A DNA stretch of 64,000 nt from a virus (lineage: Duplodnaviria; Heunggongvirae; Uroviricota; Caudoviricetes): IMG/VR virus record IMGVR_UViG_3300038345_000251, positions 247,248 to 311,247 of that record. One strand, written 5' to 3'. The stretch's first letter is position 1. Every line of letters starts with the position of its first letter. Shown here piece by piece: positions 3,325-14,901 of the stretch. The notes under the pieces are model-generated. The model ran no database searches, had not been told where the DNA came from, and saw only the letters and a list, made by a program, of their open reading frames with translations. A program made the translations under genes and the position numbers.

Positions 3325-3721
3325 AAATCAAACCGTACTACATCGCTGCGACTGAGGAACTTCGGCTTTACGAAGATTGCATTACCTTTGGAGTGTTTTA
3401 CTTCTCTTTTAAACTACTTCAGATGTTGTACCAAATTACTGATGTTATCTCGTTGGCCTAGACAGGATGTTTTTCATCATCGTCTCTCTTTACAAGGTTT
3501 TACCCACCTGTTGGCAAGGCGCATCATTTTAGGTTTATGAATTATTCCTAAAATTCAAGATTCATGAGCATCCTAAGATTAATTATTCGGCCGCTTAGTT
3601 TCTTAATTTATTTTGGCTGTTTTCTTAATCGAACATTTACCGCACCTATGTTTGCACCTTAATAAATACCCTCATTACTACTTGGCAAGGTTCATTATGG
3701 AAAATGAACTAGGTTTGATTT
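3325..3721 (-). ncRNA. putative large (~400 nt) structured ncRNA
   Basis: 10-bp terminal stem AAATCAAACC/GGTTTGATTT, several internal hairpins, no ORF, lies between tRNAs. Confidence 0.45.
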
Positions 3722-3757
3722 GAAACTAACAAAGAAATGTTAGCGAGTATATTTCAC

Positions 3758-3820
3758 AGAAATCAATTTGTTTCATCAGATATTGGAGGTATCTACAAAA
3801 AAAGTTGCTGTTTGATTTCT
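3758..3820 (-). ncRNA. stem+ACAGCAA element with a Gly(UCC)-like anticodon hairpin
   Basis: AGAAATCAA-ACAGCAA...AGATA-CCTCCAA-TATCT...TTGATTTCT. Confidence 0.6.
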
Positions 3821-3825
3821 TATTG

Positions 3826-3898
3826 AGCCGACAGGGGGATTCGAACCCACGACTTCCGCATTACAAGTGCGGTGCTCTACCAGCTGAGCTATGTCGGC
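3826..3898 (-). tRNA. tRNA-Thr(UGU)
   Basis: canonical cloverleaf, CT TGT AA. Confidence 0.95.
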
Positions 3899-3962
3899 AT
3901 TAAATTCAATACAAATATACAAATAAATATATTAAAAATCAACATTAAATTAATAATGTTTG

Positions 3963-4035
3963 GGGGAAGGGTCGGAATCGAACCGACATCAACAGGACCA
4001 CAATCTGTCATGTTAACCTTTACACCACCATCCCC
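3963..4035 (-). tRNA. tRNA-His(GUG) with encoded G-1
   Basis: loop TT GTG GT, G-1:C73. Confidence 0.93.
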
Positions 4036-4040
4036 ATGTA

Positions 4041-4176
4041 TCTTCTAATAAACATCCAATGTGGTAATACGTACTCCCACAAATTTTACAGTTGTTGTTT
4101 TAACCTCATAAACTATCAGCACCACGCATATACAGACTTGAACTCGCTTCTCCAACTTGTGATGTGTATTAAAAGA
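4041..4176 (-). ncRNA. putative structured RNA with T-loop, D-arm and Tyr-loop-like pieces
   Basis: closing stem TCTTTTAATA..CATC/GATG..TATTAGAAGA; internal GTTCAAGTC, AGTTTATGAGGTTAAAAC, CTGTAAA. Confidence 0.3.
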
Positions 4177-4252
4177 AAAAACAGACTTTTAGTTATGTCT
4201 TCCTAACCAAGACATTTATGAACATCACCAGAGAGTATATTTCTAAGAAAAA

Positions 4253-4555
4253 TTACTTTTCCTTTTCGTTTTTCTTTCCCTTTTTAAGCCAAACTTCTTT
4301 AATACAATCAATTGAACCTTTATTGAAAAAATACAATACAGGTACTGTGATAAAGAGAAGAGGAAATACCCATAACCAAGAAATTTCAGGTGTGGCAATA
4401 ATAAAGTAAACACTATAAGCAACTATTAAATCAGCAATTAATGCGAAAATAGGTGCTAAATATGGTGTTAAGAATTCTAACTTATCAAAAAGTTTTCCAA
4501 GTGGTTCAAACATTTTTTCCACAACATTCCAAAATTTATCCCAAAACTTACTCAT
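4253..4555 (-). CDS. hypothetical membrane protein
   Basis: 100 aa, 2 hydrophobic segments, stop/start overlap with the upstream ORF. Confidence 0.6.
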   Translation of the reverse strand: MSKFWDKFWNVVEKMFEPLGKLFDKLEFLTPYLAPIFALIADLIVAYSVYFIIATPEISWLWVFPLLFITVPVLYFFNKGSIDCIKEVWLKKGKKNEKEK

Positions 4556-4769
4556 GATTCTTTTTATTTCTTTTTTCTTTTATTTTATTAACAAAATATT
4601 TACTAACAAGTATATCAAAATAAATTGCACCTGCTGTAAACGGAGCAATAAGAATTATTGCCCATAATAAACTTAAACTTTTGAAAGCAACACAAGCAAA
4701 TATCACTAATAAAAGATTAAAAGTAAATAATCCAAATGTTCCCCAAAAAATTAAACCTTTGTCTTCCAT
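4548..4769 (-). CDS. hypothetical membrane protein (start moved to MEDKG)
   Basis: 2 hydrophobic segments; ATG at 4769 directly follows the upstream stop. Confidence 0.55.
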   Translation of the reverse strand: MEDKGLIFWGTFGLFTFNLLLVIFACVAFKSLSLLWAIILIAPFTAGAIYFDILVSKYFVNKIKEKRNKKNHE

Positions 4770-4771
4770 AA

Positions 4772-5014
4772 TTAAACAATTAAAATTATAATAATTATTA
4801 TTGCTATTTGTAAAAGTTGGCCAACCATTCCACCTATCATGGTCGCCCACCAATCGTTCCAATCAAATATTCCACCTTTTAATTTGTCTTTGTATTCCAT
4901 CCCTGTAGCAAGGCCTAATACACATAAAATAGTAAATATAAATCCCACTGGGATAGCGTATTTAAAGTGTAAATCTCTATTAGAACTTTTAAACCAATTT
5001 TTAATTTTACCCAT
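4772..5014 (-). CDS. hypothetical membrane protein
   Basis: 80 aa, preceded by ACTATTTATA motif. Confidence 0.6.
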   Translation of the reverse strand: MGKIKNWFKSSNRDLHFKYAIPVGFIFTILCVLGLATGMEYKDKLKGGIFDWNDWWATMIGGMVGQLLQIAIIIIIILIV

Positions 5015-5255
5015 AACTCTTTTTACTATAAATAGTTATGAAGTATGAAATTGTATTATTTTGACAAATAAATTGTTTAATTTTTATATTAAAAATACGA
5101 AAGGAATTCCGTAGTCACCTTTCATCACAGATACTTCTGACACTATCTACATCAGCCTAAAGCGAACCGAAACCTGCTTATCATTATTTGAATCTTTCTC
5201 TAACACCCATTTTAGTTAGATATGCTATCTGATTCCCCAACTAGATATTTTTAAC

Positions 5256-5331
5256 TGGAGCAGTGGACGGGACTCGGACCCGCAACCTTGACATTGGCAA
5301 TGTCACTATCTACCAATTGATATACCACTGC
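5256..5331 (-). tRNA. tRNA-Gly(GCC) with encoded CCA
   Basis: loop TT GCC AA, U73-CCA. Confidence 0.93.
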
Positions 5332-5336
5332 ATATA

Positions 5337-5412
5337 TGGATGGCTGGATTTAATACCAACAATAGCGAGACTGTTTCTCGCTGTTTTACCACGTGACATT
5401 AGACTACATCCA
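5337..5412 (-). pseudogene. degenerate tRNA-like element
   Basis: acceptor TGGATG/CATCCA, D- and T-like arms, non-canonical anticodon and T loops. Confidence 0.45.
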
Positions 5413-5415
5413 TAA

Positions 5416-5569
5416 TGGAGCAGGTGAACGGAATCGAACCGTCATAGCCAGATTGTTCAAACACTACGCTTCGGACGTACAATCGTTCTCCCATTTGTTT
5501 GAAATAATTACTCACAGTGAATTGGAACTGTATGGAAGTCTGGCGCACTAACCGTTGTGCTACACCTGC
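5416..5569 (-). tRNA. tRNA-Gly(UCC) interrupted by a 79-nt intron
   Basis: exon1 5569-5534 ends CCAGA-CTTCC; exon2 5454-5416 AA-TCTGG...T-CCA; joining gives a canonical tRNA. Confidence 0.9.
5455..5533 (-). other. AUACRG...C mini-intron in tRNA-Gly(UCC)
   Basis: starts ATACAG; ACAGT/ACTGT pairing; nested stem TTCAAACA/TGTTTGAA with T-like arm; terminal C. Confidence 0.8.
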
Positions 5570-5575
5570 AAAAAC

Positions 5576-5712
5576 AAAAGTCTTTTTACCCTCATTCGGA
5601 TTCGAACCGTTATCTTCAGACTATCTGTCTGCTATTCTACCTATTAAACTACTTATGCAAGGGATTTATTTTGGCGCATACGAAATTGATTATTGATTGC
5701 TGTAAGACTTTT
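5576..5712 (-). ncRNA. stem+ACAGCAA element enclosing a degenerate tRNA body
   Basis: AAAAGTCTT-ACAGCAA...D arm, CAGAC/GTCTG arm, CGG-TTCGAAT-CCG...AAGACTTTT. Confidence 0.55.
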
Positions 5713-5885
5713 TATTAATTTTCTCAGTTTAATTATAACTGTATATGGCGAAGGTTTTTGACCACTCTTTTTACTTACTTAGCTAGCAGTTATTCGATAA
5801 AAAAAGTAAGAAGTTATATCTGAAAGATATTTCGAAATTCTCTTTCATCTACGGAATCAGACACCTTCAAAACCGTAAGCCTCTT

Positions 5886-6617
5886 TTACTGGTTTTTTAT
5901 ATCTTTTTTTCTAAATGGTAAATCGTATTTTTTACACCATTTTCTAACGGCATTATCTGTTACATTATAGATTTTACCAATTTCAACAAAACTTTTTTCT
6001 TTTATCAAGGAACTTAAAACATCTTTTGGCGGAATTGCATTTTTTTTCTTATTGTATGAAATGTTGTTTTTTTCTAAAAATTTGTTTAATGTTTTTCCAG
6101 TTATATGATTTTTTTTATAAATTTCTTTTTTAGGTAATCCGTTGTTAATGTCATTAATTATACTTTCATAATTTAAATAATTAAAAGAATCGTTTGTTTT
6201 ATGTATATAATTATTTTCATTGTAAAATGAAACCTTGTTTTTTTCCTTTTCTTCTTCTTTCTTTTTTTCTTTTTCTTGTCTGATTTTATAATGTATTTCT
6301 CTATGACAGTTAGCACAAAGTAACATACATTTATCAACTTCTTTTTTTAACGTTTCGATATTACATATTTTACTTGCTGAAATATTGAAATCTTTTTGTG
6401 TTGGGTCTTTATGATGAAAGTCAAGTGCTTCAATACACTTGTCATATCCACATATTTCACATTTACCACCTTTATATTCGACAAGTATTTGTTTATAATT
6501 TTTTCTTTTTTTAGCAACAGATTCATAGTTACATTTTTTACATCTTTTTCTTCCTTTTTTGTCAACGGAAAATTCAGTTTTTCCGTGTATCGGACAAAGT
6601 TCTATAATTGTTTCCAT
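5886..6617 (-). CDS. free-standing HNH homing endonuclease with C-terminal HTH (start moved to METII)
   Basis: CxxC..LDFHH..LCANCHREIH HNH motif; ACTATTTATA just upstream. Confidence 0.8.
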   Translation of the reverse strand: METIIELCPIHGKTEFSVDKKGRKRCKKCNYESVAKKRKNYKQILVEYKGGKCEICGYDKCIEALDFHHKDPTQKDFNISASKICNIETLKKEVDKCMLLCANCHREIHYKIRQEKEKKKEEEKEKNKVSFYNENNYIHKTNDSFNYLNYESIINDINNGLPKKEIYKKNHITGKTLNKFLEKNNISYNKKKNAIPPKDVLSSLIKEKSFVEIGKIYNVTDNAVRKWCKKYDLPFRKKDIKNQ

Positions 6618-6687
6618 ATGTTTTTTATTATAAATAGTTTTTGGTTCGAAAAAAATGCGATAATGTAAAAGTTTTTTGTTCGATTTG

Positions 6688-6764
6688 TCGGGACGGCAGG
6701 AATTGAACCTGCATGTAACCAATTACACTTTCAACACCTTATCAGGGTGAGGTGATACGTCCCG
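6688..6764 (-). tRNA. atypical D-arm-less tRNA-Ile(GAU)-like RNA with long extra arm
   Basis: acceptor CGGGACG/CGTCCCG, CACC-CT GAT AA-GGTG, extra hairpin TGTAA/TTACA, T arm GCAGG/CCTGC; only about 7 nt where the D arm should be. Confidence 0.55.
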
Positions 6765-6779
6765 GAGATAAAATACGGA

Positions 6780-6950
6780 TTAAAACTCAACAGGCATACC
6801 CCTAAAAATGTATTTAGTAGAGGTATCGCCTATTTTTCTTCTTCTAAGTTGTTTATGTGCAAGTTTTTTAGTTACTTTTTTTGTTTTTAACCATTGTTTA
6901 TTTGCTTTACCAGCACAATAAAATCCTTTGAAATCTTTTATACTATGCAT
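6780..6950 (-). CDS. small basic hypothetical protein (56 aa)
   Basis: own translation MHSIKDFKGFYCAG...PVEF*. Confidence 0.45.
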   Translation of the reverse strand: MHSIKDFKGFYCAGKANKQWLKTKKVTKKLAHKQLRRRKIGDTSTKYIFRGMPVEF

Positions 6951-6969
6951 ATTATTGAATTTAAAATTG

Positions 6970-7040
6970 TTGGAGTAGAAAGATTCGAACTCTCACTTAC
7001 AGAGCCAGAATCTGTAGTGCTGCCATTACACCATACTCCA
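6970..7040 (-). tRNA. tRNA-Gln(CUG)
   Basis: U1-A72, ACAGA-TT CTG GC-TCTGT. Confidence 0.93.
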
Positions 7041-7049
7041 TAAAAATTG

Positions 7050-7172
7050 TTGGGGGTAGAGGAATCGAACCTCTGTCTCGTCTTTATGAGAGATTTGCTA
7101 AGAAATTGCTGCAAGCTTTTATATCGAAAAGCCTTTTTCGCTTTTCGTATGCTGCCACTACACCAACCCCCA
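7050..7172 (-). tRNA. atypical tRNA(CAU)-like RNA with a ~50-nt stem+GCAGCAA insert in the anticodon stem
   Basis: intact acceptor, D and T arms; TCT-CT CAT AA-AGA; insert GCTTTT/AAAAGC-TT-GCAGCAA. Confidence 0.6.
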
Positions 7173-7179
7173 ATTGTTT

Positions 7180-7386
7180 TTATTTGTCAACTAAATTATT
7201 TCTAAGTCTTTCAAATTCTTTTTTATCTTGTTTATTTTTCTTTTGTAATTTTTCTACTTTGTTATCATTGCTTCCACAATGTCTATCATAGTATTTTTTT
7301 ACTTTAAATGGATAATCATTAAAATCATCACCATAAACACCATGTTTGGATTTTGCTTTTTCAGAATGTAATCTAGTTTTAGACAT
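7180..7386 (-). CDS. small basic hypothetical protein (start moved to MSKTRL)
   Basis: 68 aa; the ORF-track extension overlaps a tRNA-like gene. Confidence 0.5.
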   Translation of the reverse strand: MSKTRLHSEKAKSKHGVYGDDFNDYPFKVKKYYDRHCGSNDNKVEKLQKKNKQDKKEFERLRNNLVDK

Positions 7387-7407
7387 AATTTTATGTTTTA
7401 AAATTTG

Positions 7408-7522
7408 TGTGGATGAACAGATTTGAACTGCTGACACGAAGTTTACCCAAAAAGATGATGCTGTTAATTTCCAGAACTGAAAACATATTGTCTTCTGCTC
7501 TACCAGACTGAGCTACATCCAC
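7408..7522 (-). tRNA. atypical tRNA-Pro(UGG)-like RNA with a stem+ACAGCA insert in the anticodon stem
   Basis: intact acceptor, D and T arms; loop TT TGG GT; insert GTTTTCAG-TT-CTGGAAAT-TA-ACAGCAT. Confidence 0.6.
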
Positions 7523-7531
7523 ATATTAGAC

Positions 7532-7585
7532 GGAAAACGCTTTTCATTGCTACCCAGTAATAATTTAACTTGCTGTGTATTTTCC
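7532..7585 (-). ncRNA. minimal stem+ACAGCAA element
   Basis: GGAAAAT-AC-ACAGCAA...TGGGT...GTTTTCC. Confidence 0.55.
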
Positions 7586-7589
7586 TTTG

Positions 7590-7674
7590 TCGGAGTGGGG
7601 GGATTCGAACCCCCAAGCCCATTACAGGCACAAGTTCCTTAGACTTGCGTGTCTACCAATTCCACCACACTCCG
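7590..7674 (-). tRNA. tRNA-Leu(AAG)
   Basis: class II Leu body, CAAGT-CT AAG GA-ACTTG. Confidence 0.9.
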
Positions 7675-8598
7675 TTTTTTCAAATCTTTTTTCCTATAAG
7701 GTAAATCGTATGATTTACACCATTTCACTATTGTTTTATCACAAACATTATAAAGTTTTGCAATATATCTAAAAGAAAAATTAGTAATTAAATCAAATAA
7801 TTCTTTTTTAGAAGGTCTATTTTTTACTTTTCTTTGTTTTAAATAATACTCATGTTGTTTAATTGTATGTTTTTCATCATATTGCTCAGATTTTTTATAA
7901 TAGTTTGTATATTGTTTACCGTTTTTTGATATTTTTATTTCTCCTTTTGGTACTTTAATTATTCCAATATGAGTAATGTCTTTAATTTTATTATTTGATA
8001 ATAGTTCTTTTAATTTATTATTTATTAAATCATGATTGTTTTTTACTATGTCTTCTGAAATTCTAATAACTTTCCAACCCAAAGAAGTTAATAATAAATC
8101 TTTTTTCTTATCATTTTCTTTTCTTTCTTCATCTAAAAGATGTTGTGAACCATCTATTTCAACCGCAATTTTTTCATTGATAAATGCAAAATCAATATAA
8201 TATGGAAAAATAGATTTCTCTCTTTCAATTAAATATTTTTTATCATATTCATTTTCTTGAAGAAATTTTATAAAACATTTTTCTGGATAAGAAGGTTCAT
8301 TTCTTTTTCTCCAAGCAGTTTCTTCAGGATGTTCTTTTAAATATTTAAGCCTTATTTCTTTTAGTTTTAATTTTGTTTCTTTTGTATGTTTAAAACTCTT
8401 AGGATATTTTTTATGTGACAATGTGATTGATTCTGAAAAATTTCTTGTTATATTACCTAATAGTTTTTCTCTAATCCACATTTTTGATTTAATATTGTAT
8501 TTTTTAACAATATCACGTATTGAACAACCATTTAAATATTCATTTCTTATTTTTTCTTTTTCTTCTTCAGTAAACAAATTATCATATTTTGAACTCAT
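7639..8598 (-). CDS. free-standing DUF559/Vsr-like (PD-D/ExK) homing endonuclease
   Basis: YYIDFAF..KIAVEIDGSQH..D..L...GWKVIRI motif; HTH C-terminus; 3' end overlaps tRNA-Leu. Confidence 0.8.
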   Translation of the reverse strand: MSSKYDNLFTEEEKEKIRNEYLNGCSIRDIVKKYNIKSKMWIREKLLGNITRNFSESITLSHKKYPKSFKHTKETKLKLKEIRLKYLKEHPEETAWRKRNEPSYPEKCFIKFLQENEYDKKYLIEREKSIFPYYIDFAFINEKIAVEIDGSQHLLDEERKENDKKKDLLLTSLGWKVIRISEDIVKNNHDLINNKLKELLSNNKIKDITHIGIIKVPKGEIKISKNGKQYTNYYKKSEQYDEKHTIKQHEYYLKQRKVKNRPSKKELFDLITNFSFRYIAKLYNVCDKTIVKWCKSYDLPYRKKDLKKRSVVELVDTQV

Positions 8599-8672
8599 AA
8601 TTTTATCATTTTATTATAAATATAAGAAAAAAATAAAAACGAACCGATATTTTAAAAAATTTAATGTCCTTG

Positions 8673-8830
8673 TCGTGCATACCAGAATCGAACTGGTGTT
8701 TACAGAATGGGCTTCTTATAAAGTATCGAACTTTCTTCATTCTCACCAAGATTAAAATAAGAAGCTAACTTTTTTCAGATTAAGTTTAACTGTATAAAAT
8801 CTGTCGTCCTAGCCACTAGACGAATGCACG
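8673..8830 (-). tRNA. tRNA-Glu(UUC) interrupted by an 86-nt intron
   Basis: exon1 ends ACAGA-TT TT; exon2 starts C AT-TCTGT. Confidence 0.88.
8710..8795 (-). other. AUACRG...C mini-intron in tRNA-Glu(UUC), position 35/36
   Basis: ATACAG..AACTT..CTGAAA..AAGTT; nested stem GCTTCTTAT/ATAAGAAGC with AAAG-TTCGATA-CTTT arm; terminal C. Confidence 0.8.
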
Positions 8831-8835
8831 AAATT

Positions 8836-8974
8836 TAGTATCTACACGTGAAGCAGGTGTGCACTCCTATCTCTTCACCCTTTTGTATATGTAACACCCA
8901 AGTCATGTTCATATACCTTGCCTCCAAAAGACGCTTGGGAATTTCTTTGAAAACCGTCTTTATCCTTGATACTA
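8836..8974 (-). ncRNA. putative structured intergenic RNA
   Basis: closing stem AGTATC/GATACT, GC-richer than its flanks, no ORF. Confidence 0.25.
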
Positions 8975-8975
8975 G

Positions 8976-9049
8976 TGGAGCGTATCGGAATCGAACCGAT
9001 GACCTCAACATTGCAAGTGTTGCGTTCTAGCCAACTGAACTAACGCCCC
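8976..9049 (-). tRNA. tRNA-Ala(UGC)
   Basis: G3-U70, loop CT TGC AA. Confidence 0.95.
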
Positions 9050-9056
9050 ATAAATC

Positions 9057-9173
9057 GGAAAACTTTATCTTTACGTCCAGTGGACGGGGTTGGACTTGAA
9101 CCAACGAACCTCTCATGTTTTCAATTAAAGTGAAAAATGTTAAACCATTAGCGTAAATTGCTGTATGTTTTCC
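9057..9173 (-). ncRNA. stem+ACAGCAA element with UUA anticodon arm and T arm (permuted tRNA-like)
   Basis: GGAAAAC-AT-ACAGCAA...TTTCA-CT TTA AT-TGAAA...GTTGG-TTCAAGT-CCAAC-CGTCC/GGACG...GTTTTCC. Confidence 0.6.
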
Positions 9174-9174
9174 T

Positions 9175-9249
9175 TGGCGGTGCATACGAGAATCGAACTC
9201 GTACCGCATGATAGACAGTCACGCATCCTAACCATTGGACCAATGCACC
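9175..9249 (-). tRNA. tRNA-Asp(GUC) with encoded CCA
   Basis: loop CT GTC TA, G73-CCA. Confidence 0.93.
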
Positions 9250-9267
9250 GTAAAAAAATGTATAATC

Positions 9268-9381
9268 AGAAAACGTCTTTAAAAATATTTCCATTATCTC
9301 CAAAGGAGACCTTTCAGTTTTTTTGCTGAAAGTTGGATTCGAACCAACAATTTTTTAAGCAAATGTTGCTGTATGTTTTCT
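9268..9381 (-). ncRNA. stem+ACAGCAA element with a T arm followed by a hairpin
   Basis: AGAAAAC-AT-ACAGCAA...GTTGG-TTCGAAT-CCAAC-TTTCAG/CTGAAA...GTTTTCT. Confidence 0.6.
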
Positions 9382-9585
9382 TAATACAAATATACTAATA
9401 AATAATTTAAAAGTCAATAAAACGAAGCATATATATTTTCTTTAGATAATACACGTCTGTATTAAATAGGTCATCATTGATTGCCTTTGGGTACATTGTT
9501 CCTTATCTCATACTATAAGTCAATGGTTTGCTACCGTCACAATCGGTTTTTGCTTCTGGCTTGTTAGGTATGAACTAACAAGTTG

Positions 9586-9804
9586 TGGGAAGGGGAGGAT
9601 TCGAACCTCCGAAGCCGTAAGGCAGCAGATTGTTCCATATAACTGATTCGAACAGTTGATTGCAAGTTTTTAACTTACTCCGACTTTATAACATTTTTTT
9701 GTTACCGTAAGCCTACGACTTTGACCACTTGTCTAATATGGAATTTGGTTTTCAGTTTGCTCTGTATTACAGTCTGCCCCATTTGACCACTCTGGAACCT
9801 TCCC
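9586..9804 (-). tRNA. tRNA-Tyr(GUA) interrupted by a 136-nt intron
   Basis: class II Tyr body; exon1 ends GCAGA-CT GTA; exon2 AA-TCTGC. Confidence 0.9.
9632..9767 (-). other. AUACRG...C mini-intron in tRNA-Tyr(GUA)
   Basis: ATACAG..CTGAAA; nested tRNA-like domain TTCCATAT/ATATGGAA with D arm GAC-AAGTGGTCAAA-GTC and T arm AACTG-TTCGAAT-CAGTT; terminal C. Confidence 0.8.
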
Positions 9805-9810
9805 ATTTAT

Positions 9811-10401
9811 TTACTGTATTAAAACACCTTGTTTGTTTTTTCTAGGTTTATAACCTGTTCTACCTAATTTCCAACCATTGTTTAAATATTCTTGAAGTTT
9901 TTCTTTTAATAAATATTTAACTTTACCTTCTTTATTAATCCAAATTCTTTTGTTTGTTGAATTTTCAGGTAACATTTTTTTTCTTGTTTTTTGTTTTGAT
10001 TCTTCTTTATGGTGTCTATTTTTCCATATAGTATTAAAAGAATCTTTGTTGTTTAAATAGATTTCTTGACTAATCCAAAATTTTTCACCATTTTTGTCTA
10101 TAACTGGTACCATTCCATTAGTACTAAAATACTTACCACCTATTTGAACATTATAGCAATTTTCATCTTTTATTAAAGTTTCATTTACTATTTCCTTTTC
10201 ATATAAAAAGGCTTCTTCTGATGTATTAAAATATTTTAATATTTCTTTTTTAAAGCATTCTATTCCATATTTAATAATTGCTTTTTTAAGAAATTTTCCA
10301 GAACCCATATAACCGTCATCAATATTATCTGTGTTATGTACACCATAATAATATTTGTTGTTAATGGTGTTTGTAATTTTATAAAAATAATGATATTTCA
10401 T
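9811..10401 (-). CDS. free-standing Seg-like GIY-YIG homing endonuclease
   Basis: YFYKITNTINNKYYYGVH..DDGYMGSG N-terminus. Confidence 0.8.
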   Translation of the reverse strand: MKYHYFYKITNTINNKYYYGVHNTDNIDDGYMGSGKFLKKAIIKYGIECFKKEILKYFNTSEEAFLYEKEIVNETLIKDENCYNVQIGGKYFSTNGMVPVIDKNGEKFWISQEIYLNNKDSFNTIWKNRHHKEESKQKTRKKMLPENSTNKRIWINKEGKVKYLLKEKLQEYLNNGWKLGRTGYKPRKNKQGVLIQ

Positions 10402-10595
10402 AACATTTACAGTTTCTTTTTATATAAATAGTAGAAAAACTGTAAATGTAAAGTTTTTTTTCAAAAAAATAACCGATTATACACGAACTCGGTAAACATT
10501 CCTGACTTAACGATTCAGATGGCGATTATTGCTGCAAGAGCAACCACGTGTTTCGATTCCTGGTACCTAGGACCGCACATTTTAACATCATAAAA

Positions 10596-10868
10596 ACAGT
10601 ATTAAGGAACTTTATTTGGTATCTGGCTGTAACCTTATATGCCATATTGCAATTTGTTTATTCTTCGAACAACATATAAGAGCTTCACACACCATTAGAG
10701 AGTTGACCGTAAAGGCTGTTCTTCCTGTTTGAACTATTCCGTCTTCCCTTCGTGTTATCCTTAGTGTGTACCATTGAGGTCATACGTTTTGTGTTCGATT
10801 CACTACGTACTAACGGTTAATCCGTTCACTGCTCTCCCAGCTTGTTCCTGAACTCCTAATAATACTGT
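10596..10868 (-). ncRNA. putative ~270-nt structured ncRNA
   Basis: closing stem ACAGTATTA..GGAAC/GTTCC-TTAATACTGT, no ORF. Confidence 0.35.
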
Positions 10869-10880
10869 AAAGTTATATCG

Positions 10881-10954
10881 TGGGAGTGGTTGGATTCGAA
10901 CCAACGTCTTTCATCTTGTAAGGATGACAGTCTATACCACTGGCGTACACTCCC
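10881..10954 (-). tRNA. tRNA-Val(UAC)
   Basis: TCATC-CT TAC AA-GATGA. Confidence 0.93.
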
Positions 10955-11107
10955 AAAAGCACCACATTTACGGTAACGTGGTCAACCAAGTAATTACTCA
11001 ACGAGTAATATAAGTAAAATACCTACTGATGGAGTAACATATCACACTTAGTTACTCACCATCCCTCCAGTGTGTGAATCCCTTAAAATCTTTCTTACCT
11101 CGGTATT

Positions 11108-11653
11108 TTATTGATAATCTTCAGTTTGTCTAATTCCAAATTTATGAAAGTATCGCAAAGGTCTCCATTTTTTACCATTAACGATAAATCCCCATTTAAT
11201 TTTAGGTCTACCTTCAAACATTAAAGTCCAAGCACCACCTTTAGGAATCTGTAAATAATGTAAGTCTTCTGCTTTTGAAAACCATATTGAATCATCCATA
11301 TTGAAGAAGTTTTTCCAAGAATTGAAAATACCTTCAACGTAACATTTCCGTTGGTTTTTAACTTCATAAGGCGTTCCGTCTTTCCATATTGTAACAGTAT
11401 CGTCAGGATTCTTATTATCTTCGTAAGGCTTTACATTCCAATAATGTCCTTTTAGAACAATACTGAGTAAGTTAGCACTATGGTCGTGAAAATATCTGTT
11501 ATCATCACTTTTAATCCAATGATGTATTCTCATTGAATAACCAAAGAAGATAAAAGTCCATCTAATTAAATAAGGTGCTTCAGGAATACCAAGTTTTTCT
11601 GCCCATCTAATTTGAAAGTTTTTAAATGGTTTCGTGTTTGTACTTCCTTTCAT
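11108..11653 (-). CDS. cupin-like phage protein
   Basis: RIHHWIKSDDNRYFHDH..LSIVLKGHYWN His-rich motif. Confidence 0.55.
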   Translation of the reverse strand: MKGSTNTKPFKNFQIRWAEKLGIPEAPYLIRWTFIFFGYSMRIHHWIKSDDNRYFHDHSANLLSIVLKGHYWNVKPYEDNKNPDDTVTIWKDGTPYEVKNQRKCYVEGIFNSWKNFFNMDDSIWFSKAEDLHYLQIPKGGAWTLMFEGRPKIKWGFIVNGKKWRPLRYFHKFGIRQTEDYQ

Positions 11654-11679
11654 AAAATTTTAATTAAAATTAAACTTTG

Positions 11680-11817
11680 TCAAGGGTGAAGGATTCGAAC
11701 CCCCTGGATTCATCTGGAACGTCTAGAATACCCAAACTATCCCCTTTCGGTCTTCCCTATGTATCTGCTGTTAGCTACTCAGCAGTAAGGCTGTTTTACC
11801 AATTAAACTAACCCCTG
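11680..11817 (-). tRNA. tRNA-like RNA with a large insert replacing the anticodon arm
   Basis: acceptor CAGGGGT/ACCCTTG, D and T arms intact; insert has CTGCTG/CAGCAG hairpin with ACAGCAG, CC-GAAA-GG and TTTGGGT. Confidence 0.5.
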
Positions 11818-11825
11818 TAAATTTG

Positions 11826-11900
11826 TGTGCCCTGAATGAATCGAACATCCGCATTTTCTGGGACGTAAATCCCATTGGTCTGCCACTAGCCTAAAGACAC
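11826..11900 (-). pseudogene. atypical tRNA-Val(UAC)-like RNA with a 6-nt anticodon loop
   Basis: TGGGA-TTTACG-TCCCA, extended variable region. Confidence 0.5.
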
Positions 11901-12196
11901 ATTTCTCACCTAAGATTAACACGATTTTATCTGTCATTCTCACGCACTAGGTACATTCTTGTTTTTTGTGCTGTTCTCACCCCTTTTATGACCCCTAGAC
12001 GCTACTCTATGCATCCTATATTTGGAATTAATGATGCTACCCTACGTCCACACTCATCATAACGTTTAACTGTGGCTTCCATTACCTGTTCCAATCATTT
12101 AATGGACTCCCCCACAGTGAAGCTGTTAATCGGATTTCAACGCTCTCTATTGAAGATTTGAACTTCTACATACCCTAGTAATAGAAAAATATAAAC

Positions 12197-12327
12197 AGGA
12201 AACGTTTTTTGTTTTGTTTTCGCCACTAAACTAACAATGAGAACACACAATCTCATTGTGGGGGATTCGAACCCACCGTCTTCTTTTTTGCAGAAAGTTA
12301 ACAATTTAAAATTGCTGTATGTTTCCT
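12197..12327 (-). ncRNA. circularly permuted tRNA-Cys-like RNA inside a stem+ACAGCAA bracket
   Basis: order: AGGAAAC-AT-ACAGCAA, CTTT-CT GCA AA-AAAG, T arm, ACAATGAG/CTCATTGT acceptor hairpin, D arm, GTTTCCT. Confidence 0.65.
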
Positions 12328-12564
12328 TATCTTATTGTTTTGTGTGTTTTTATTTCAAAAAAATGATGGATGCACAACCACTTCCTATTCCATCATTGTG
12401 TCATTACGTTTTGTGCCAACGTACCCAATTCCACAACACTTATTGGGTAACTTCGTGTAGTTTCAACAATCAAATTACTAAGATTGTAATGGACAGCCAA
12501 AGTAAACTTTGGAACTAATGTAACCACCATTAAATTTCTGCCGTTGTTACGAAAAATAATTCTC

Positions 12565-12633
12565 GGAAAACTAAATTTTAGCGTTTCTGAATTAAAAGTT
12601 CGGAGCTTAAATAAAAGTTGCTGTACGTTTTCC
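12565..12633 (-). ncRNA. stem+ACAGCAA element with a Lys(UUU) anticodon hairpin
   Basis: GGAAAAC-GT-ACAGCAA...TCCGAA-CT TTT AA-TTCAGA...GTTTTCC. Confidence 0.6.
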
Positions 12634-12690
12634 TATATTTTATATTTCTGATACAAATATACAAACTTATTTTTAAAAAAACAAAATTTT

Positions 12691-12772
12691 CAGGGACTTA
12701 CACTGTTTTAATCATGCCTAAACTAACTATCTATTGATAGTGGTGGAATCAAACCAACCTTCTGATGCCAAG
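12691..12772 (-). ncRNA. permuted tRNA-like fragment (T arm, acceptor hairpin, D arm)
   Basis: TGG-TTTGATT-CCA, ACTATC-AATA-GATAGT, TA-GTTT..AAAC. Confidence 0.45.
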
Positions 12773-12948
12773 CGGAAGCGGAGGGATTTGAACCCACGAC
12801 CCACGGATTAGCTTGATGTGTGGAATACGATACCACAATTCGAACTGCAAATGCTACGAGTTTTTCCTTAAACTACATCAAAACATGTTCGTTTCGGTGA
12901 ACAATTCCGTATACAGTCCGTTGCTCTGACCAACTGAGCTACGCTTCC
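12773..12948 (-). tRNA. tRNA-Asn(GUU) interrupted by a 102-nt intron
   Basis: exon1 ends ACGGA-CT GT; exon2 T AA-TCCGT; G73. Confidence 0.9.
12811..12912 (-). other. AUACRG...C mini-intron in tRNA-Asn(GUU), position 35/36
   Basis: ATACGGAATT-GTTC-ACCGAAAC-GAAC; nested TTGATGT/ACATCAA domain; terminal C. Confidence 0.82.
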
Positions 12949-12955
12949 AAAGTTA

Positions 12956-13050
12956 AAACACTTGTTATCAGCCGATTAGAAGTAAGTCTTTCAAAGCATT
13001 GAATTTTAATGAGGTCTGCTTCCTCCTGTACACTTACTAAACAAGTGTTA
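12956..13050 (-). ncRNA. putative ~95-nt structured RNA
   Basis: 10-bp closing stem AACACTTGTT/AACAAGTGTT, inner AGTAAGT/ACTTACT and GAGG/CCTC. Confidence 0.35.
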
Positions 13051-13057
13051 TAAGTAG

Positions 13058-13235
13058 TACTCTCGTTGGGATTCGAACCCAAGACCCACAGCTTAGAACC
13101 CATAATGAGATTCGAACTCAATATTCATTACCTTAGCAATGTTCTATCCTAAATAGAAATTATGGGTTAATAAATCCGTTTCGGTGGATAATTCCGTATG
13201 AAGGCTGTTGCTCTATCCAACTGAGCTACGAGAGC
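13058..13235 (-). tRNA. tRNA-Arg(UCU) interrupted by a 104-nt intron
   Basis: exon1 ends ACAGC-CT TC; exon2 T AA-GCTGT. Confidence 0.9.
13096..13199 (-). other. AUACRG...C mini-intron in tRNA-Arg(UCU)
   Basis: ATACGGAATT-ATCC-ACCGAAAC-GGAT; nested cloverleaf AACCCATAAT/ATTATGGGTT with D, AC-like and T arms; terminal C. Confidence 0.82.
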
Positions 13236-13277
13236 ATCTATATTTTAGTTAAAAAATAAATTCAAAGTAAATGGTTA

Positions 13278-13610
13278 TTAGAGGATTTCCCTAACAATAC
13301 CATAAATGTTATTTCTGCTAATCCAACCGTTCATATGACCGTGATTATTACCAATCAAGTAAGATGAACCTTTTTTGTTGGTTTTAATAGAATGAATTAA
13401 ATGAAGATAATAATGTCCATTTACTTTTGAAAGAACTATATCTCTTTTTTTTAATTCAGTTTCTTCAGTAACAGGTTCGCATATTACAGGTTGTTTAGAT
13501 TTTAAAATTGGTGTCATAGAATTACCAATTCCTGTAATTTTGCAGGTTTCTCCGTTACGAAGATGTTCAGCAGAAAAACGATTTTCAAAACCACTATAAG
13601 TGTATTCCAT
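13278..13610 (-). CDS. S24/S26 peptidase-like protein
   Basis: GNSMTPIL...LHLIH...GNN pattern. Confidence 0.65.
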   Translation of the reverse strand: MEYTYSGFENRFSAEHLRNGETCKITGIGNSMTPILKSKQPVICEPVTEETELKKRDIVLSKVNGHYYLHLIHSIKTNKKGSSYLIGNNHGHMNGWISRNNIYGIVREIL

Positions 13611-13657
13611 AATCGTTATTTTTATTGAAATTATTATTAATTAAGGCTTATGCCTTG

Positions 13658-14001
13658 TGGACCAGAGCAGGGTCGAACTGCTGTCTTAAATACCGTCAAC
13701 AAAAAAATTGGTTACAAGCTTTACTATGTTCGTTCCTGAAGTCTATAAACATAGAAGAACTGAAAGTTACAGGAAGAACGATTTTAATTCGAATATTTTT
13801 TTGTTCTATCCTAGTTTAAAAATATTCTATTGTATCTTCTGTTTCCAGGTTTTACAAGACCCAGCAATACTTAGGCAATAGCGTAAGCGTATGCAAGTTG
13901 GTTTTCACTAACTTTGTCGTTTGTTGTTTGTAGAATTTTAAGTGTCACCACTACTTGTTTTCTTGTCAACTAATATCCAATCAAAACCAAAATACTGGCC
14001 C
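13658..14001 (-). ncRNA. ssrA: tmRNA; predicted tag (A)TNDKVSENQLAYAYAIA
   Basis: GGGCCAG/CTGGTCC-A acceptor with G3-U70, T arm, internal tag ORF 13924-13871. Confidence 0.88.
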
Positions 14002-14020
14002 ATTCTGTATATTTAATTTG

Positions 14021-14093
14021 TGACCCCGAAGGGACTTGAACCCTTGACCCCAGCATTAAAAGTGCCGTGCTCTACCAACTGAGCTACGAGGCC
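14021..14093 (-). tRNA. tRNA-Lys(UUU)
   Basis: loop CT TTT AA. Confidence 0.95.
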
Positions 14094-14107
14094 ATTAGTC
14101 TTAAGTG

Positions 14108-14180
14108 TGGTGTGGGGTGGAGTTGAACCACCGACACATGGATTTTCAGTCCATTGCTCTACCACCTGAGCTACCACACC
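14108..14180 (-). tRNA. tRNA-Phe(GAA)
   Basis: ATGGA-CT GAA AA-TCCAT. Confidence 0.95.
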
Positions 14181-14261
14181 ATATTTAAAAATTTTTATAT
14201 CGTCAAAAATATCTGAAAAAACGATGGATTCATACCATAGGCTATTAAGCAACCTTTCATG

Positions 14262-14333
14262 TACTCCCAATAGGAATCGAACCTATATTACTGGTTCCGT
14301 AGACCAACGTTTTATCCGTTAAACTATGGAAGC
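14262..14333 (-). tRNA. tRNA-Arg(ACG)
   Basis: loop CT ACG GA. Confidence 0.93.
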
Positions 14334-14349
14334 AGAACAGTTATGGTGT

Positions 14350-14424
14350 TGGCAGGAGTTAGAGGATTCGAACCCCTACCTGTGGTTTTGGAGACCAATA
14401 TGCTACCATTAACACCAAACTCCT
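14350..14424 (-). tRNA. tRNA-Trp(CCA) with encoded CCA
   Basis: loop CT CCA AA, G73. Confidence 0.93.
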
Positions 14425-14436
14425 ATATATTTTTTC

Positions 14437-14514
14437 GGAAAACAAAGTTGATTTATCATTCCAATTACCCTAAAATTGTGATTAAATTAAATTAAAATTT
14501 GCTGTATGTTTTCC
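14437..14514 (-). ncRNA. stem+ACAGCAA element with a Pro(AGG) anticodon hairpin
   Basis: GGAAAAC-AT-ACAGCAA...CAATT-TT AGG GT-AATTG...GTTTTCC. Confidence 0.6.
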
Positions 14515-14707
14515 TGTTTTTTTCCACGAAGGGAGAAGTCTAACTCCCACTTCGTTTAACGACTTTTTACTACCATAATGAATCTTCGAAGATACCCAAA
14601 TAAGATGTAGCCGTTATGAATTCGTTAATCAACAGTGCATCTGTGCCATAAAAATGGTTGATGTTGTCCGCTTTCACGTACTATTTAGGTAATTCATTAA
14701 AATATTT

Positions 14708-14788
14708 GCTATGGCAAGAGGAATCGAACCTCTGTCTCCACGTGCTATACTAAAGCTAGACGTCCTGTACCACTAGACGATACCACAG
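14708..14788 (-). tRNA. atypical tRNA-like RNA with 8-bp acceptor stem and ambiguous anticodon arm
   Basis: CTGTGGTA/TGCCATAG; Glu/Asp-like D arm; loop readable as CT TTA GT or TT AGT AT. Confidence 0.45.
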
Positions 14789-14800
14789 ATAAGTTTTATT

Positions 14801-14901
14801 CCACAAAGTATTGCTTGCTGCGTAGTCCGTTTTCGATTATCGGATTCAAACTTATAAAGCATCATAACCGTCAATGCTTCTACGCCCTGGGCACTTTGTG
14901 A
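14801..14901 (-). ncRNA. putative ~100-nt multibranch RNA
   Basis: CACAAAGT/ACTTTGTG, GCGTAG/CTACGC, AAGCAT/ATGCTT, TCCG/CGGA stems. Confidence 0.4.

What the first reader, a model, noticed from the sequence alone, without database searches (positions are those of the whole stretch)
3758..14514. Dispersed family of stem+ACAGCAA RNAs that display anticodon stem-loops
Seen: eight stand-alone elements (3758, 5576, 7532, 9057, 9268, 12197, 12565, 14437) have a 7-9 bp closing stem whose sequence varies (GGAAAAC/GUUUUCC, AGAAAUCAA/UUGAUUUCU, AAAAGUCUU/AAGACUUUU), followed by invariant ACAGCAA. Five clearly enclose an anticodon-like hairpin: Gly CC-UCC-AA, CU-UUA-AU, Cys CU-GCA-AA, Lys CU-UUU-AA and Pro UU-AGG-GU. 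Some also keep T, acceptor or D pieces. The same module sits inside two linear tRNA-like genes (7050, 7408). Inference: a tRNA-associated module that could act as a decoy for anticodon nucleases, synthetases or modification enzymes, as a protein-binding tag, or as a processing signal or ribozyme.
Basis: partly seen in the sequence, partly recalled or inferred. Interest (0 to 1): 0.85.

Follow-up and report, generated by a model that had tools for sequence, protein, structure and literature searches.

The report
Phage Y-like RNAs with ACAGCAA handle
The eight elements are real small RNA genes in a giant rumen phage's tRNA cluster; they share one conserved "handle", display tRNA parts, and are most likely the partner RNAs of the phage's Ro60-like ring protein, a pairing that recurs in many unrelated phages and that I did not find described in the literature I searched.

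Summary
Observation confirmed. All eight elements lie on the minus (tRNA) strand. Each has a 7-9 bp end-to-end helix with compensatory changes, then 0-2 nt and unpaired ACAGCAA on the 5' side. Two more copies lie elsewhere in the 393-kb phage genome, and 5-8 in each of five related huge phages.

The cargo varies: an anticodon-arm look-alike, a circularly permuted tRNA, or a linear tRNA-like body. In two tRNA-like genes the handle is an inserted hairpin.

The same handle lies beside the gene for a DUF2828/DUF7788 protein in 11 of 11 unrelated cultured phages sampled. This genome's copy of that protein is predicted to fold like Ro60. A mini-handle sits 4 nt before that gene's start codon here and in three relatives.

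Best reading (0.68): these are Y-RNA-like partner RNAs of a phage Ro60-like protein, and the handle is the docking site. The decoy idea is untested. Ribozyme, retron, promoter and cut-and-rejoin readings lack support.

No Rfam family reaches threshold. The design equals that of the Dictyostelium Class I RNAs. This scan found the same family earlier on other DNA (at least 103 genomes).

The parts
3758..3820 (-). E1: handle RNA. Helix AGAAAUCAA/UUGAUUUCU (3812-3820 with 3758-3766), ACAGCAA at 3805-3811. Cargo is a 5-bp hairpin with loop CC-UCC-AA.
   Evidence: 53.8 bits. RF01414 aligns end to end at 15.1 bits.
5576..5712 (-). E2: handle RNA. Helix AAAAGUCUU/AAGACUUUU, ACAGCAA at 5697-5703. Cargo is a degenerate linear tRNA-like body (T arm GGUUCGAAUCC; anticodon-arm position has only a 5-nt loop).
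   Evidence: Handle model R2 scores 27.1 bits. The tRNA model scores 23.5 bits, below the cut-off of 29.
7532..7585 (-). E3: shortest handle RNA. Helix GGAAAAU/GUUUUCC, linker AC, ACAGCAA at 7570-7576. It lies flush between tRNA-Leu (7589-7674) and the 7408-7522 gene.
   Evidence: 37.8 bits
9057..9173 (-). E4: handle RNA. Helix GGAAAAC/GUUUUCC, ACAGCAA at 9158-9164. Cargo is an anticodon-arm mimic (CU-UUA-AU), a T arm and a loop-closed acceptor-like hairpin. It lies flush between tRNA-Asp and tRNA-Ala.
   Evidence: (45.4 bits)
9268..9381 (-). E5: handle RNA. Helix AGAAAAC/GUUUUCU, ACAGCAA at 9366-9372. Cargo is a T arm plus two further hairpins.
   Evidence: 47.3 bits. Folding z-score -2.6.
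12197..12327 (-). E6: handle RNA. Helix AGGAAAC/GUUUCCU, ACAGCAA at 12312-12318. Cargo is a complete circularly permuted tRNA-Cys look-alike: anticodon arm, T arm, 9-bp loop-closed acceptor, D arm.
   Evidence: 43 bits. Folding z-score -3.4. RNA-library contigs cover it.
12565..12633 (-). E7: handle RNA. Helix GGAAAAC/GUUUUCC, ACAGCAA at 12618-12624. Cargo is a Lys-like loop CU-UUU-AA.
   Evidence: 65.4 bits. A metatranscriptome contig with no mismatch covers 12452-12638.
14437..14514 (-). E8: handle RNA. Helix GGAAAACA/UGUUUUCC, ACAGCAA at 14499-14505. Cargo is a 5-bp hairpin with loop UU-AGG-GU. It ends 12 nt before tRNA-Trp.
   Evidence: 59.3 bits. An RNA-library contig covers 14344-14505.
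7408..7522 (-). Linear tRNA-Pro(UGG)-like gene. A hairpin-closed handle (7458-7484: GUUUUC-loop-GGAAAU-UA-ACAGCAU) is inserted in the 5' strand of the anticodon stem.
   Evidence: The tRNA model scores 46.6 bits. Sequence and fold. The same subtype occurs in Klebsiella phage FBKp34 and Cronobacter phage S13.
7049..7172 (-). Linear tRNA(CAU)-like gene. A hairpin-closed handle (7106-7134: AGGCUUUU-loop-AAAAGCUU-GCAGCAA) lies between the D arm and the anticodon arm.
   Evidence: ARAGORN with introns allowed. Sequence and fold. The Rfam tRNA model does not detect it.

Best explanation
The elements are genes for small non-coding RNAs, most probably co-transcribed with the phage's tRNAs. They are probably released by the ordinary tRNA end-processing enzymes, because several lie within 1-12 nt of the flanking tRNAs. 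All share one handle. The two ends of the RNA form a 7-9 bp helix, usually bounded on the outside by AG...CU followed by G. The 5' strand runs on, after 0-2 nt, into the unpaired word ACAGCAA. I infer that this handle is the docking site for the phage's Ro60-like ring protein (DUF2828 + DUF7788/vWA; G000 357367-359034, about 46 kb beyond the window's end). That makes the RNAs functional analogues of Y RNAs. The variable body displays tRNA parts, and four layouts occur: an anticodon-arm mimic alone, a permuted tRNA, a linear tRNA-like body, or a whole tRNA with the handle inserted. By analogy with Y RNA modules that tether Ro60 to other factors, the body would bring tRNA-recognising proteins (nucleases, repair or modification enzymes) to the ring, or hold them away from real tRNAs. 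A minimal handle 4 nt upstream of the protein's own start codon probably lets the protein repress its own translation.

Shown: the family, its covariation, its genomic association with the gene, and the predicted Ro60-like fold. Inferred: binding, autoregulation, release by tRNA processing, and the role of the cargo.
For: (1) The helix covaries: 100% paired, 4 of 7 pairs compensated, and slide controls fall to 29-70%. RNAalifold finds the same helix.
(2) Model R2 finds 9 copies in the 393-kb genome, and a direct search adds E2. All lie in the two tRNA regions. It finds 5-8 copies in each of five related huge-phage records.
(3) The genome encodes one DUF2828/DUF7788 protein. Its AlphaFold model's 13 best PDB matches are all Ro60 proteins, aligned over the full length (E 6e-6 to 6e-4, TM 0.22-0.52). 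In Swiss-Prot models the five best matches are Ro60 proteins and the sixth is telomerase p80, another TROVE protein.
(4) Homologues of this protein occur in 609 phage records. In 11 of 11 lineages sampled, 1-5 handle RNAs lie on the gene's strand. They lie within about 600 nt of the gene in 10 of the 11, and 750 nt downstream in Cronobacter S13. The lineages are E. coli wV8, Listeria A511, Mycobacterium Acquire49, Vibrio phi-Grn1, Staphylococcus 6ec, Campylobacter PC14, Leptolyngbya Lbo-JY46, Bacillus PJN02, Enterococcus Bill, Klebsiella FBKp34 and Cronobacter S13. Strict matches number 25 in 13.2 kb next to the gene against 14 in 320 kb elsewhere. Acquire49 has no annotated tRNA gene in the 13-kb stretch fetched, so the link there is to the gene and not to tRNA arrays.
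(5) A mini-handle lies directly before the gene's AUG in this genome (28.6 bits, E 0.003). It is also present in three relatives at 75-79% protein identity or more, with compensatory helix changes. In phi-Grn1 the handle encloses the ribosome-binding site and start codon.
(6) Published context: the Ro60-like gp130 of phage Bas63 counters the Ppl defence, and its authors guessed that some downstream 'tRNAs' are Y RNAs (10.1101/2024.10.10.617714). Thermus phage phiLo Ro60 binds two adjacent Y-like RNAs (PMC12135203).
Against: No binding, transcript-end or genetic data exist for this phage. In this lineage the RNA genes are 46-100 kb from the protein gene. One related record (82% complete) has the RNAs but no detectable gene. 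The protein model is of only moderate confidence (pLDDT 66), and sequence profiles find no PDB relative. The canonical Ro60-binding CGAA motif is absent. The Pfam TROVE model does not hit the genome. The one published protein partner of the look-alike Dictyostelium Class I RNAs is an RRM protein, not Ro60 (PMC7919456). Gene adjacency could reflect co-expression rather than contact.
Confidence: 0.68

Rival explanations
1. Disrupted tRNA genes. The handle marks sites where an unknown endonuclease and ligase cut and rejoin permuted or interrupted precursors into working tRNAs, as bulge-helix-bulge motifs do in archaea and algae.
For: E6, E4 and the two L044 elements hold complete permuted cloverleaves, and two linear tRNA-like genes carry the handle as an insert. 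Other tRNA genes in the same array carry mini-introns. For the 13058-13235 gene, RNA-library contigs show the spliced junction. The phage encodes two PF09414 RNA ligases.
Against: Most members have no tRNA body to rejoin: they hold an anticodon-arm mimic only, or a roughly 190-nt non-tRNA cargo. Handles sit beside the Ro60-like gene in a phage with no annotated tRNA gene in the 13-kb stretch fetched. UUU, GCA, UGG and CAU are also present as ordinary tRNA genes, and UCC as the intron-bearing gene at 5419-5569. No splicing endonuclease or RtcB is encoded. There is no 3-4-3 bulge-helix-bulge geometry. RNA-library contigs cross E6-E7 unbroken.
Confidence: 0.1
2. Free-standing decoys. The RNAs act alone as baits for host anticodon nucleases or tRNA-modifying enzymes. 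The handle only stabilises the ends or is read by a host factor, with no role for the Ro60-like protein.
For: Anticodon-arm mimics are strongly enriched (22 of 62 against 2.5 expected, a count that includes T-arm loops). They favour UUU, GUA, GCA, UUC, GUU and GUC. From my own knowledge, several of these are anticodons of tRNAs cut by known anticodon nucleases (PrrC, colicin E5, zymocin-type).
Against: This does not explain an ACAGCAA word that is nearly invariant across very different hosts, the tight linkage to one protein gene, or the mini-handle on that gene's leader. Family members in E. coli, Listeria, Staphylococcus and Mycobacterium phages have no anticodon-like loop.
Confidence: 0.12
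3. A self-cleaving or self-ligating ribozyme core built on the helix plus ACAGCAA.
For: A short, near-invariant unpaired word next to a helix is typical of small ribozymes. No protein contact has been shown.
Against: No ribozyme family in Rfam 15 matches. The conserved part is only a helix plus 7 nt, with no second conserved strand. Contigs cross the elements intact.
Confidence: 0.04
4. A DNA-level feature: promoter, terminator, or inverted-repeat mobile element.
For: The ends are inverted repeats, and the copies are dispersed.
Against: The helix arms differ between copies through compensatory changes, which is selection at the RNA level. Promoter-like and terminator-like sites are at chance level and do not coincide with the elements. 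The hairpin-permuted version inside tRNA-like genes makes no sense as terminal inverted repeats.
Confidence: 0.02

Closest known systems
Ro60 (Rsr) - Y RNA ribonucleoproteins, especially bacterial and mycobacteriophage YrlA (Rfam RF02553; Chen et al. 2014, PMC4201824)
   Same: Small RNAs whose 5' and 3' ends form a helix, followed by a conserved unpaired word that serves as the protein handle. They have a variable module that in YrlA is a tRNA mimic with a loop-closed acceptor, T arm and D arm. They are encoded beside a ring-shaped HEAT+vWA protein and are often multicopy.
   Different: The handle word is ACAGCAA, not GNCGAA/CGAA. The partner is the DUF2828/DUF7788 family, which the Pfam TROVE model and sequence profiles do not connect to Ro60. 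The handle branches off beside an intact anticodon arm instead of replacing it. RF02553 does not match: the only hit is an artefact of two adjacent tRNAs.
Thermus phage phiLo Ro60 with Yrl1 and Yrl2 (PMC12135203; PDB 9KOP, 9L5Y)
   Same: A phage-encoded Ro60-type ring protein with small partner RNAs encoded next to its gene. That protein is among the best structural matches of this genome's protein.
   Different: The phiLo RNAs carry the CGAA motif and no tRNA parts. Binding is shown there by EMSA and cryo-EM, and nothing is shown here.
Class I RNAs of dictyostelid social amoebae (Rfam RF01414; Kjellin et al. 2021, PMC7919456)
   Same: The design is the same: about 60 nt, a short end-to-end helix kept by compensatory changes, a conserved motif ending in ACAGCAA right after the 5' strand, conserved AAG at the start and CUG(U) at the end, a variable interior, and many gene copies. 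RF01414 aligns end to end with E1 and with the wV8 elements.
   Different: Scores of 15-20 bits are far below the gathering score of 41.5, and E7 gives no hit. The amoeba genes have their own DUSE promoter. Their known binder is the RRM protein Rnp1A. No tRNA-like cargo has been described, and the authors found the class in no other organism.
Bas63 gp130 (PhageMaP preprint, 10.1101/2024.10.10.617714)
   Same: A Ro60-like phage protein directly upstream of a tRNA array, the same layout as wV8 gp47. It gives a phenotype as a counter to the Ppl defence system. The authors suggest that some annotated tRNAs may be Y RNAs.
   Different: That work defines no RNA family, handle or structure. I did not test orthology of gp130 to this genome's protein; I infer it from the shared gene layout.
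Circularly permuted and split tRNA genes (Cyanidioschyzon merolae, archaea)
   Same: E4, E6 and relatives have the 3' half of a cloverleaf before the 5' half, with the acceptor closed by a loop.
   Different: Those precursors mature through bulge-helix-bulge cleavage by a splicing endonuclease. Here there is no such motif or enzyme. The break lies between the D arm and the anticodon arm and is always capped by the ACAGCAA handle.

Membership tests
YrlA / Y RNA (RF02553) | Match to the family covariance model at its gathering score (69 bits) | tested here: not met
   No hit at gathering. The 25-27 bit hit at 7470-7638 pairs the T arm of tRNA-Leu with the D arm of the next gene. The wV8 elements give no hit at E<=10.
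YrlA / Y RNA (RF02553) | Terminal 5'-3' helix next to a conserved bulge carrying GNCGAA/CGAA | tested here: not met
   The terminal helix is present and covaries, but the conserved word is ACAGCAA in all members.
YrlA / Y RNA (RF02553) | Encoded beside a Ro60 orthologue | tested here: inconclusive
   The Pfam TROVE model finds nothing in the genome. The DUF2828/DUF7788 protein is predicted to fold like Ro60. It is adjacent to handle RNAs in 11 of 11 cultured lineages. In this genome only a mini-handle abuts the gene.
YrlA / Y RNA (RF02553) | tRNA-like module with T arm, D arm and closed acceptor | tested here: met
   E4, E5 and E6 have it in part or in full, as do L044, L041 and wV8 10404-10529. 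E1, E3, E7 and E8 do not.
YrlA / Y RNA (RF02553) | Physical binding to the Ro60-type protein | not testable with these tools
   Needs EMSA, RIP or a structure.
Dictyostelid Class I RNA (RF01414) | Match to the family covariance model at its gathering score (41.5 bits) | tested here: not met
   E1 scores 15.1 bits. E7 gives no hit. The wV8 elements score 20.1 and 17.8 bits.
Dictyostelid Class I RNA (RF01414) | Short end-to-end helix kept by compensatory changes, followed on the 5' side by the motif ending in ACAGCAA | tested here: met
   The last 7 of the 11 motif positions are identical, and the first 4 vary.
Dictyostelid Class I RNA (RF01414) | Conserved AAG start and CUGU end | tested here: inconclusive
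   In the DNA, 24 of 40 curated members begin NAAG and 24 of 40 end CUGU or CUGA. The RNA ends are not mapped.
Dictyostelid Class I RNA (RF01414) | Own DUSE promoter about 60 nt upstream; binding to Rnp1A | not tested
   The elements sit flush between tRNA genes, so an own promoter is unlikely for E3 and E4. Binding is not testable here.
tRNA (RF00005) | Match to the tRNA model at 29 bits with a contiguous cloverleaf | tested here: not met
   E2 scores 23.5 bits and the other stand-alone elements give no hit. The 7408-7522 gene passes at 46.6 bits despite the insert.
Permuted or split tRNA genes matured by a splicing endonuclease | Bulge-helix-bulge motif at the junction, plus a splicing endonuclease and RtcB-type ligase | tested here: not met
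   The junction is a 7-9 bp helix with one 7-9 nt 5' bulge. PF01974 and PF01139 are absent. Two PF09414 ligases are present.
Retron msr/msd RNA | Associated reverse transcriptase | tested here: not met
   PF00078 finds nothing in the complete genome.

The most novel reading that the evidence does not exclude
The DUF2828 Ro60-like ring and its ACAGCAA-handle RNAs form an ancient, uncatalogued ribonucleoprotein. In phages it would work as a programmable bait: each RNA displays a particular anticodon arm or a whole tRNA, to capture, block or recruit host tRNA-targeting defence nucleases or repair enzymes. The orphan Class I RNAs of social amoebae would be the eukaryotic branch of the same particle.
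Probability: 0.2. Interest if true: 0.9.

Novelty: new variant of a known kind. Interest (0 to 1): 0.68.

Why it matters
If the inference holds, hundreds of well-studied phages (Felix O1 types, Listeria A511, staphylococcal, mycobacterial and T4-like vibriophages) carry an unannotated class of small RNAs and an RNA-protein particle that has escaped description. The protein already has an anti-defence phenotype in one phage. The RNAs show what the particle might recognise, namely tRNA anticodon arms, which ties it to the current question of how phages cope with tRNA-cleaving immunity. It would also explain many 'oversized' or 'pseudo' tRNA calls in phage annotations. The shared signature gives a testable lead on the 20-year-old puzzle of the Dictyostelium Class I RNAs.

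Tried and rejected
1. An exact 16-mer scan of IMG/VR gave 48 loci. About 40 were chance matches inside coding DNA, and only L001/L043, L002, L013/L041, L034 and L044 were relatives.
2. A loose regex over the whole genome was too noisy to use.
3. The YrlA hit is spurious.
4. Retron idea (closing helix plus AGC): no reverse transcriptase.
5. Splicing or repair machinery: no RtcB and no tRNA splicing endonuclease.
6. Promoter and terminator scans were at chance level.
7. Single-sequence folding z-scores are mostly weak.
8. Metatranscriptome contigs show that the array is present in RNA libraries and that a neighbouring mini-intron is spliced. They give no coverage at all of 7049-7585, so they cannot say whether the inserted handles are removed. 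Contigs cannot show RNA ends, and DNA carry-over is not excluded.
9. Sequence searches of the protein against PDB sequences found nothing, with a single sequence or with a profile. Only the fold search linked it to Ro60.
10. A single-protein search of IMG/VR found only 3 close loci.
11. The open reading frames inside the array include DUF559 and GIY-YIG homing endonucleases and an S24-like peptidase; none is a candidate partner.
12. A mini-handle is absent upstream of the 58-62% identical homologues (L066, L067, L075), so that feature is clade-limited.

Full report
WHAT IS THERE

The window comes from a 392,823-bp, 29.6% G+C virus record judged complete. DNA holders are bovine gut and other gut metagenomes. 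Positions 3000-17400 hold a dense RNA gene array on the minus strand. ARAGORN tRNAs in that stretch (21 in the window) and Rfam 27 in the window. Several of these tRNAs carry 40-105-nt insertions. The array also holds a tmRNA and a CUA-anticodon tRNA.

All eight flagged elements lie on this strand. Read as RNA, each is: 5' helix strand, 0-2 nt, ACAGCAA, cargo, 3' helix strand, G. The helix sequence differs between copies while pairing is kept: GGAAAAC/GUUUUCC, AGAAAUCAA/UUGAUUUCU, AAAAGUCUU/AAGACUUUU, AGGAAAC/GUUUCCU.

IS IT MORE THAN CHANCE?

I built a covariance model from five members and rebuilt it from 17.
- In the 17-member alignment the 7-bp helix is paired in all 119 cells. Four pairs show double changes, and the covariation score is reached by none of 500 shuffles. 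Sliding the partner strand drops pairing to 29-70%.
- RNAalifold, given ten short members and no structure, returns exactly this helix.
- The model finds nine copies in the whole genome, and E2 scores in a direct search. All lie in the two tRNA regions. Two are new copies outside the window, just after a tRNA-Met near G000 6250-6500.
- It also finds 5-8 copies in each of five related huge-phage records.
- Thermodynamic z-scores of single elements are modest. Promoter-like and terminator-like sites are at chance.

THE CARGO

The short members (E1, E7, E8 and many relatives) enclose a hairpin that looks like an anticodon arm: 5 bp and a 7-nt loop of the form YU-NNN-R-N.
- Over 62 family members, 22 have a perfect such hairpin (the pattern also counts T-arm loops), against 2.5 +/- 1.5 (maximum 8) in shuffled cargo.
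- The anticodon-like loops show UUU, GCA, GUA, UUC, GUU, GUC, GAA, GAU, UCC, UUA and AGG.
- E4, E5 and E6 add a T arm, a loop-closed acceptor hairpin and, in E6, a D arm. E6 is a complete circularly permuted cloverleaf opened between the D arm and the anticodon arm.
- E2 encloses a degenerate linear tRNA-like body.
- The genes at 7049-7172 and 7408-7522 are the reverse permutation: ordinary acceptor ends, with the handle present as a closed hairpin at the same junction (7106-7134 and 7458-7484). The same oversized-tRNA subtype exists in Klebsiella phage FBKp34 and Cronobacter phage S13.
- UUU, GCA, UGG and CAU are also present in the array as ordinary tRNA genes, and UCC as the intron-bearing gene at 5419-5569. 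So the elements are not needed as tRNA genes.

THE LINK TO A PROTEIN

I confirmed it (G000 357367-359034, 555 aa, DUF2828 + DUF7788).
- Sequence methods do not connect it to any solved structure.
- An AlphaFold model (pLDDT 66, pTM 0.64) has as its 13 best PDB matches only Ro60 proteins: Deinococcus Rsr, frog and human Ro60, and Thermus phage phiLo Ro60. They align over the full length (E 6e-6 to 6e-4, TM 0.22-0.52). In Swiss-Prot models the five best matches are Ro60 proteins and the sixth is telomerase p80, another TROVE protein.
- tblastn finds homologues in 609 deposited phage genomes, often annotated 'RNA-binding' or 'Ro-like'.

I fetched the gene neighbourhood from 11 unrelated cultured phages and scanned both strands with a simple descriptor: helix of at least 7 bp, at most 3 nt, then CAGCAA (the tally below counts ACAGCAA only).
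- Every lineage has 1-5 handle RNAs on the gene's strand. They usually abut the gene. For example, there are three ending 35 nt before Listeria A511 gp57, three starting 20 nt after the Staphylococcus 6ec gene, five starting 8 nt after the Leptolyngbya phage gene, and three starting 42 nt after the 'Ro-like' gene of Mycobacterium phage Acquire49. Acquire49 has no annotated tRNA gene in the 13-kb stretch fetched.
- Strict matches number 25 in the 13.2 kb next to the genes against 14 in the other 320 kb. Several of those 14 are further true copies in nearby tRNA arrays.

In the rumen-phage lineage the RNAs are instead dispersed in the tRNA arrays. The complete relative G003 also has the gene. 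An 82%-complete relative shows none.

A direct tie exists within this genome. Model R2 finds a 46-nt minimal handle (AGAAUUU, AA, ACAGCAA, an 18-nt loop, GAAUUCU, GA) that ends 4 nt before the protein's AUG (28.6 bits, E 0.003 in 149 kb). The same arrangement, with compensatory helix changes, precedes the gene in three relatives. In Vibrio phage phi-Grn1 the handle encloses the Shine-Dalgarno sequence and the start codon. RNA-binding proteins often repress their own mRNA through a copy of their target (established for ribosomal proteins, T4 RegA and phage coat proteins). I read this as a probable autoregulatory operator, and hence as indirect evidence that the protein recognises the handle. 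More distant homologues (58-62% identity) lack it.

MECHANISM, WITH ITS STATUS

Shown:
- a conserved structured-RNA family;
- its tight genomic association with one protein family;
- the predicted Ro60-like fold of that protein.

Inferred:
- the RNAs are released from the tRNA operon by the enzymes that trim the flanking tRNAs (E3 and E4 are flush between two tRNAs, and E2, E5 and E8 end 6-18 nt before one);
- the helix plus ACAGCAA docks on the ring, as the bulged helix of Y RNAs docks on Ro60;
- the cargo presents tRNA features to a third party.

Which third party is unknown. The published Bas63 result that the Ro60-like gp130 counters a defence system suggests counter-defence or tRNA damage control. 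So do the known ties of bacterial Ro60/YrlA to PNPase and to the tRNA-damage-induced Rtc operon.

RNA evidence is thin. Near-identical metatranscriptome contigs cover 12273-12627, 12452-12638, 11825-12663, 14344-14505 and 5533-5770. So the array is represented in RNA libraries and is crossed unbroken, but contigs cannot show ends and DNA carry-over is not excluded. Nothing covers 7049-7585.

COMPARISON WITH WHAT IS KNOWN

In architecture this is a Y RNA system, but it fails the membership tests for YrlA. RF02553 does not match, the CGAA word is replaced, and the partner is a different Pfam family.

The handle's design is that of the dictyostelid Class I RNAs: a short covarying terminal helix, a motif ending in ACAGCAA after the 5' strand, an AAG start and a CUG(U) end (PMC7919456). 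RF01414 aligns end to end with E1 and with the wV8 elements, but at 15-20 bits against a threshold of 41.5. I therefore report a resemblance, not membership.

I found no paper describing the phage RNAs. The nearest are the Bas63 authors' guess that some of that phage's 'tRNAs' are Y RNAs, and the phiLo Yrl RNAs, which have a different motif.

This scan has noted the same family on other DNA many times: 120 notes in at least 103 genomes. I re-derived the key points independently here and added the leader mini-handle and the four cargo layouts.

VERDICT

This is a new variant of a known kind of system, with high confidence that the RNA family is real and moderate confidence (0.68) in the Ro60-like partnership.

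Noticed in passing
window 13058-13235 (-); also 5419-5569, 8672-8832, 9586-9800, 12773-12948: tRNA genes with 68-105-nt insertions that start (A)UAC(A/G)G at or next to the anticodon, several holding a nested tRNA-like fold. For 13058-13235, loose ends of RNA-library contigs at 13098 and 13200 give the spliced junction and the loop CUUCUAA, i.e. tRNA-Arg(UCU). So these mini-introns are removed in vivo. Lak megaphages were reported to have similar 'enigmatic' tRNA introns (PMC6784885).
   Followed up: partly
G000 357319-357364 (outside the window; L053:1393-1438): A minimal ACAGCAA handle ends 4 nt before the start codon of the Ro60-like DUF2828 gene. It is conserved with compensatory changes in three relatives and is a probable autoregulatory operator.
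   Followed up: yes
G000 6248-6501 (-) (L054:749-1002): Two further handle RNAs lie just downstream of a tRNA-Met in a second small RNA cluster of the genome. One has a 130-nt cargo that is not tRNA-like.
   Followed up: partly
L057:2871-3073 (-) and L061:3360-3549 (+) (related huge phages): Here the handle helix AGAAAGCG/CGCUUUCU encloses a conserved structured cargo of about 190 nt that is not tRNA-like. Its identity is unknown.
   Followed up: no
window 13655-14001 (-): A phage-encoded tmRNA (49.2 bits). One RNA-library contig joins 14002 back to 13666 with 3 extra letters. This may reflect a tandem, circular or permuted form, or an assembly artefact.
   Followed up: no
window 17274-17344 (-): A tRNA with anticodon CUA (amber suppressor type), as in phages that recode TAG.
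   Followed up: no
window 7639-8598 (-), 9811-10401 (-): Homing-endonuclease-type ORFs (DUF559/Vsr-like with HTH; GIY-YIG/SegE-like) are interspersed among the tRNA genes.
   Followed up: partly
window 10460-10880, 11900-12190, 12330-12560, 15200-16400 (-): Long stretches between the RNA genes with no ORF of 60 aa or more on the minus strand and a less A+T-rich look. Several are covered by RNA-library contigs at high nominal depth. They may be further structured RNAs, and no Rfam family matches them.
   Followed up: no
L079:7015-7128; L080:6890-7010 and 7020-7132: Annotated 'tRNA-Asp', 'tRNA-Ser' and 'tRNA-OTHER' genes of 113-121 nt in Klebsiella phage FBKp34 and Cronobacter phage S13 are tRNAs with a hairpin-closed (A/U)CAGCA handle inserted between the D arm and the anticodon arm. 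This is the same subtype as window 7408-7522.
   Followed up: partly
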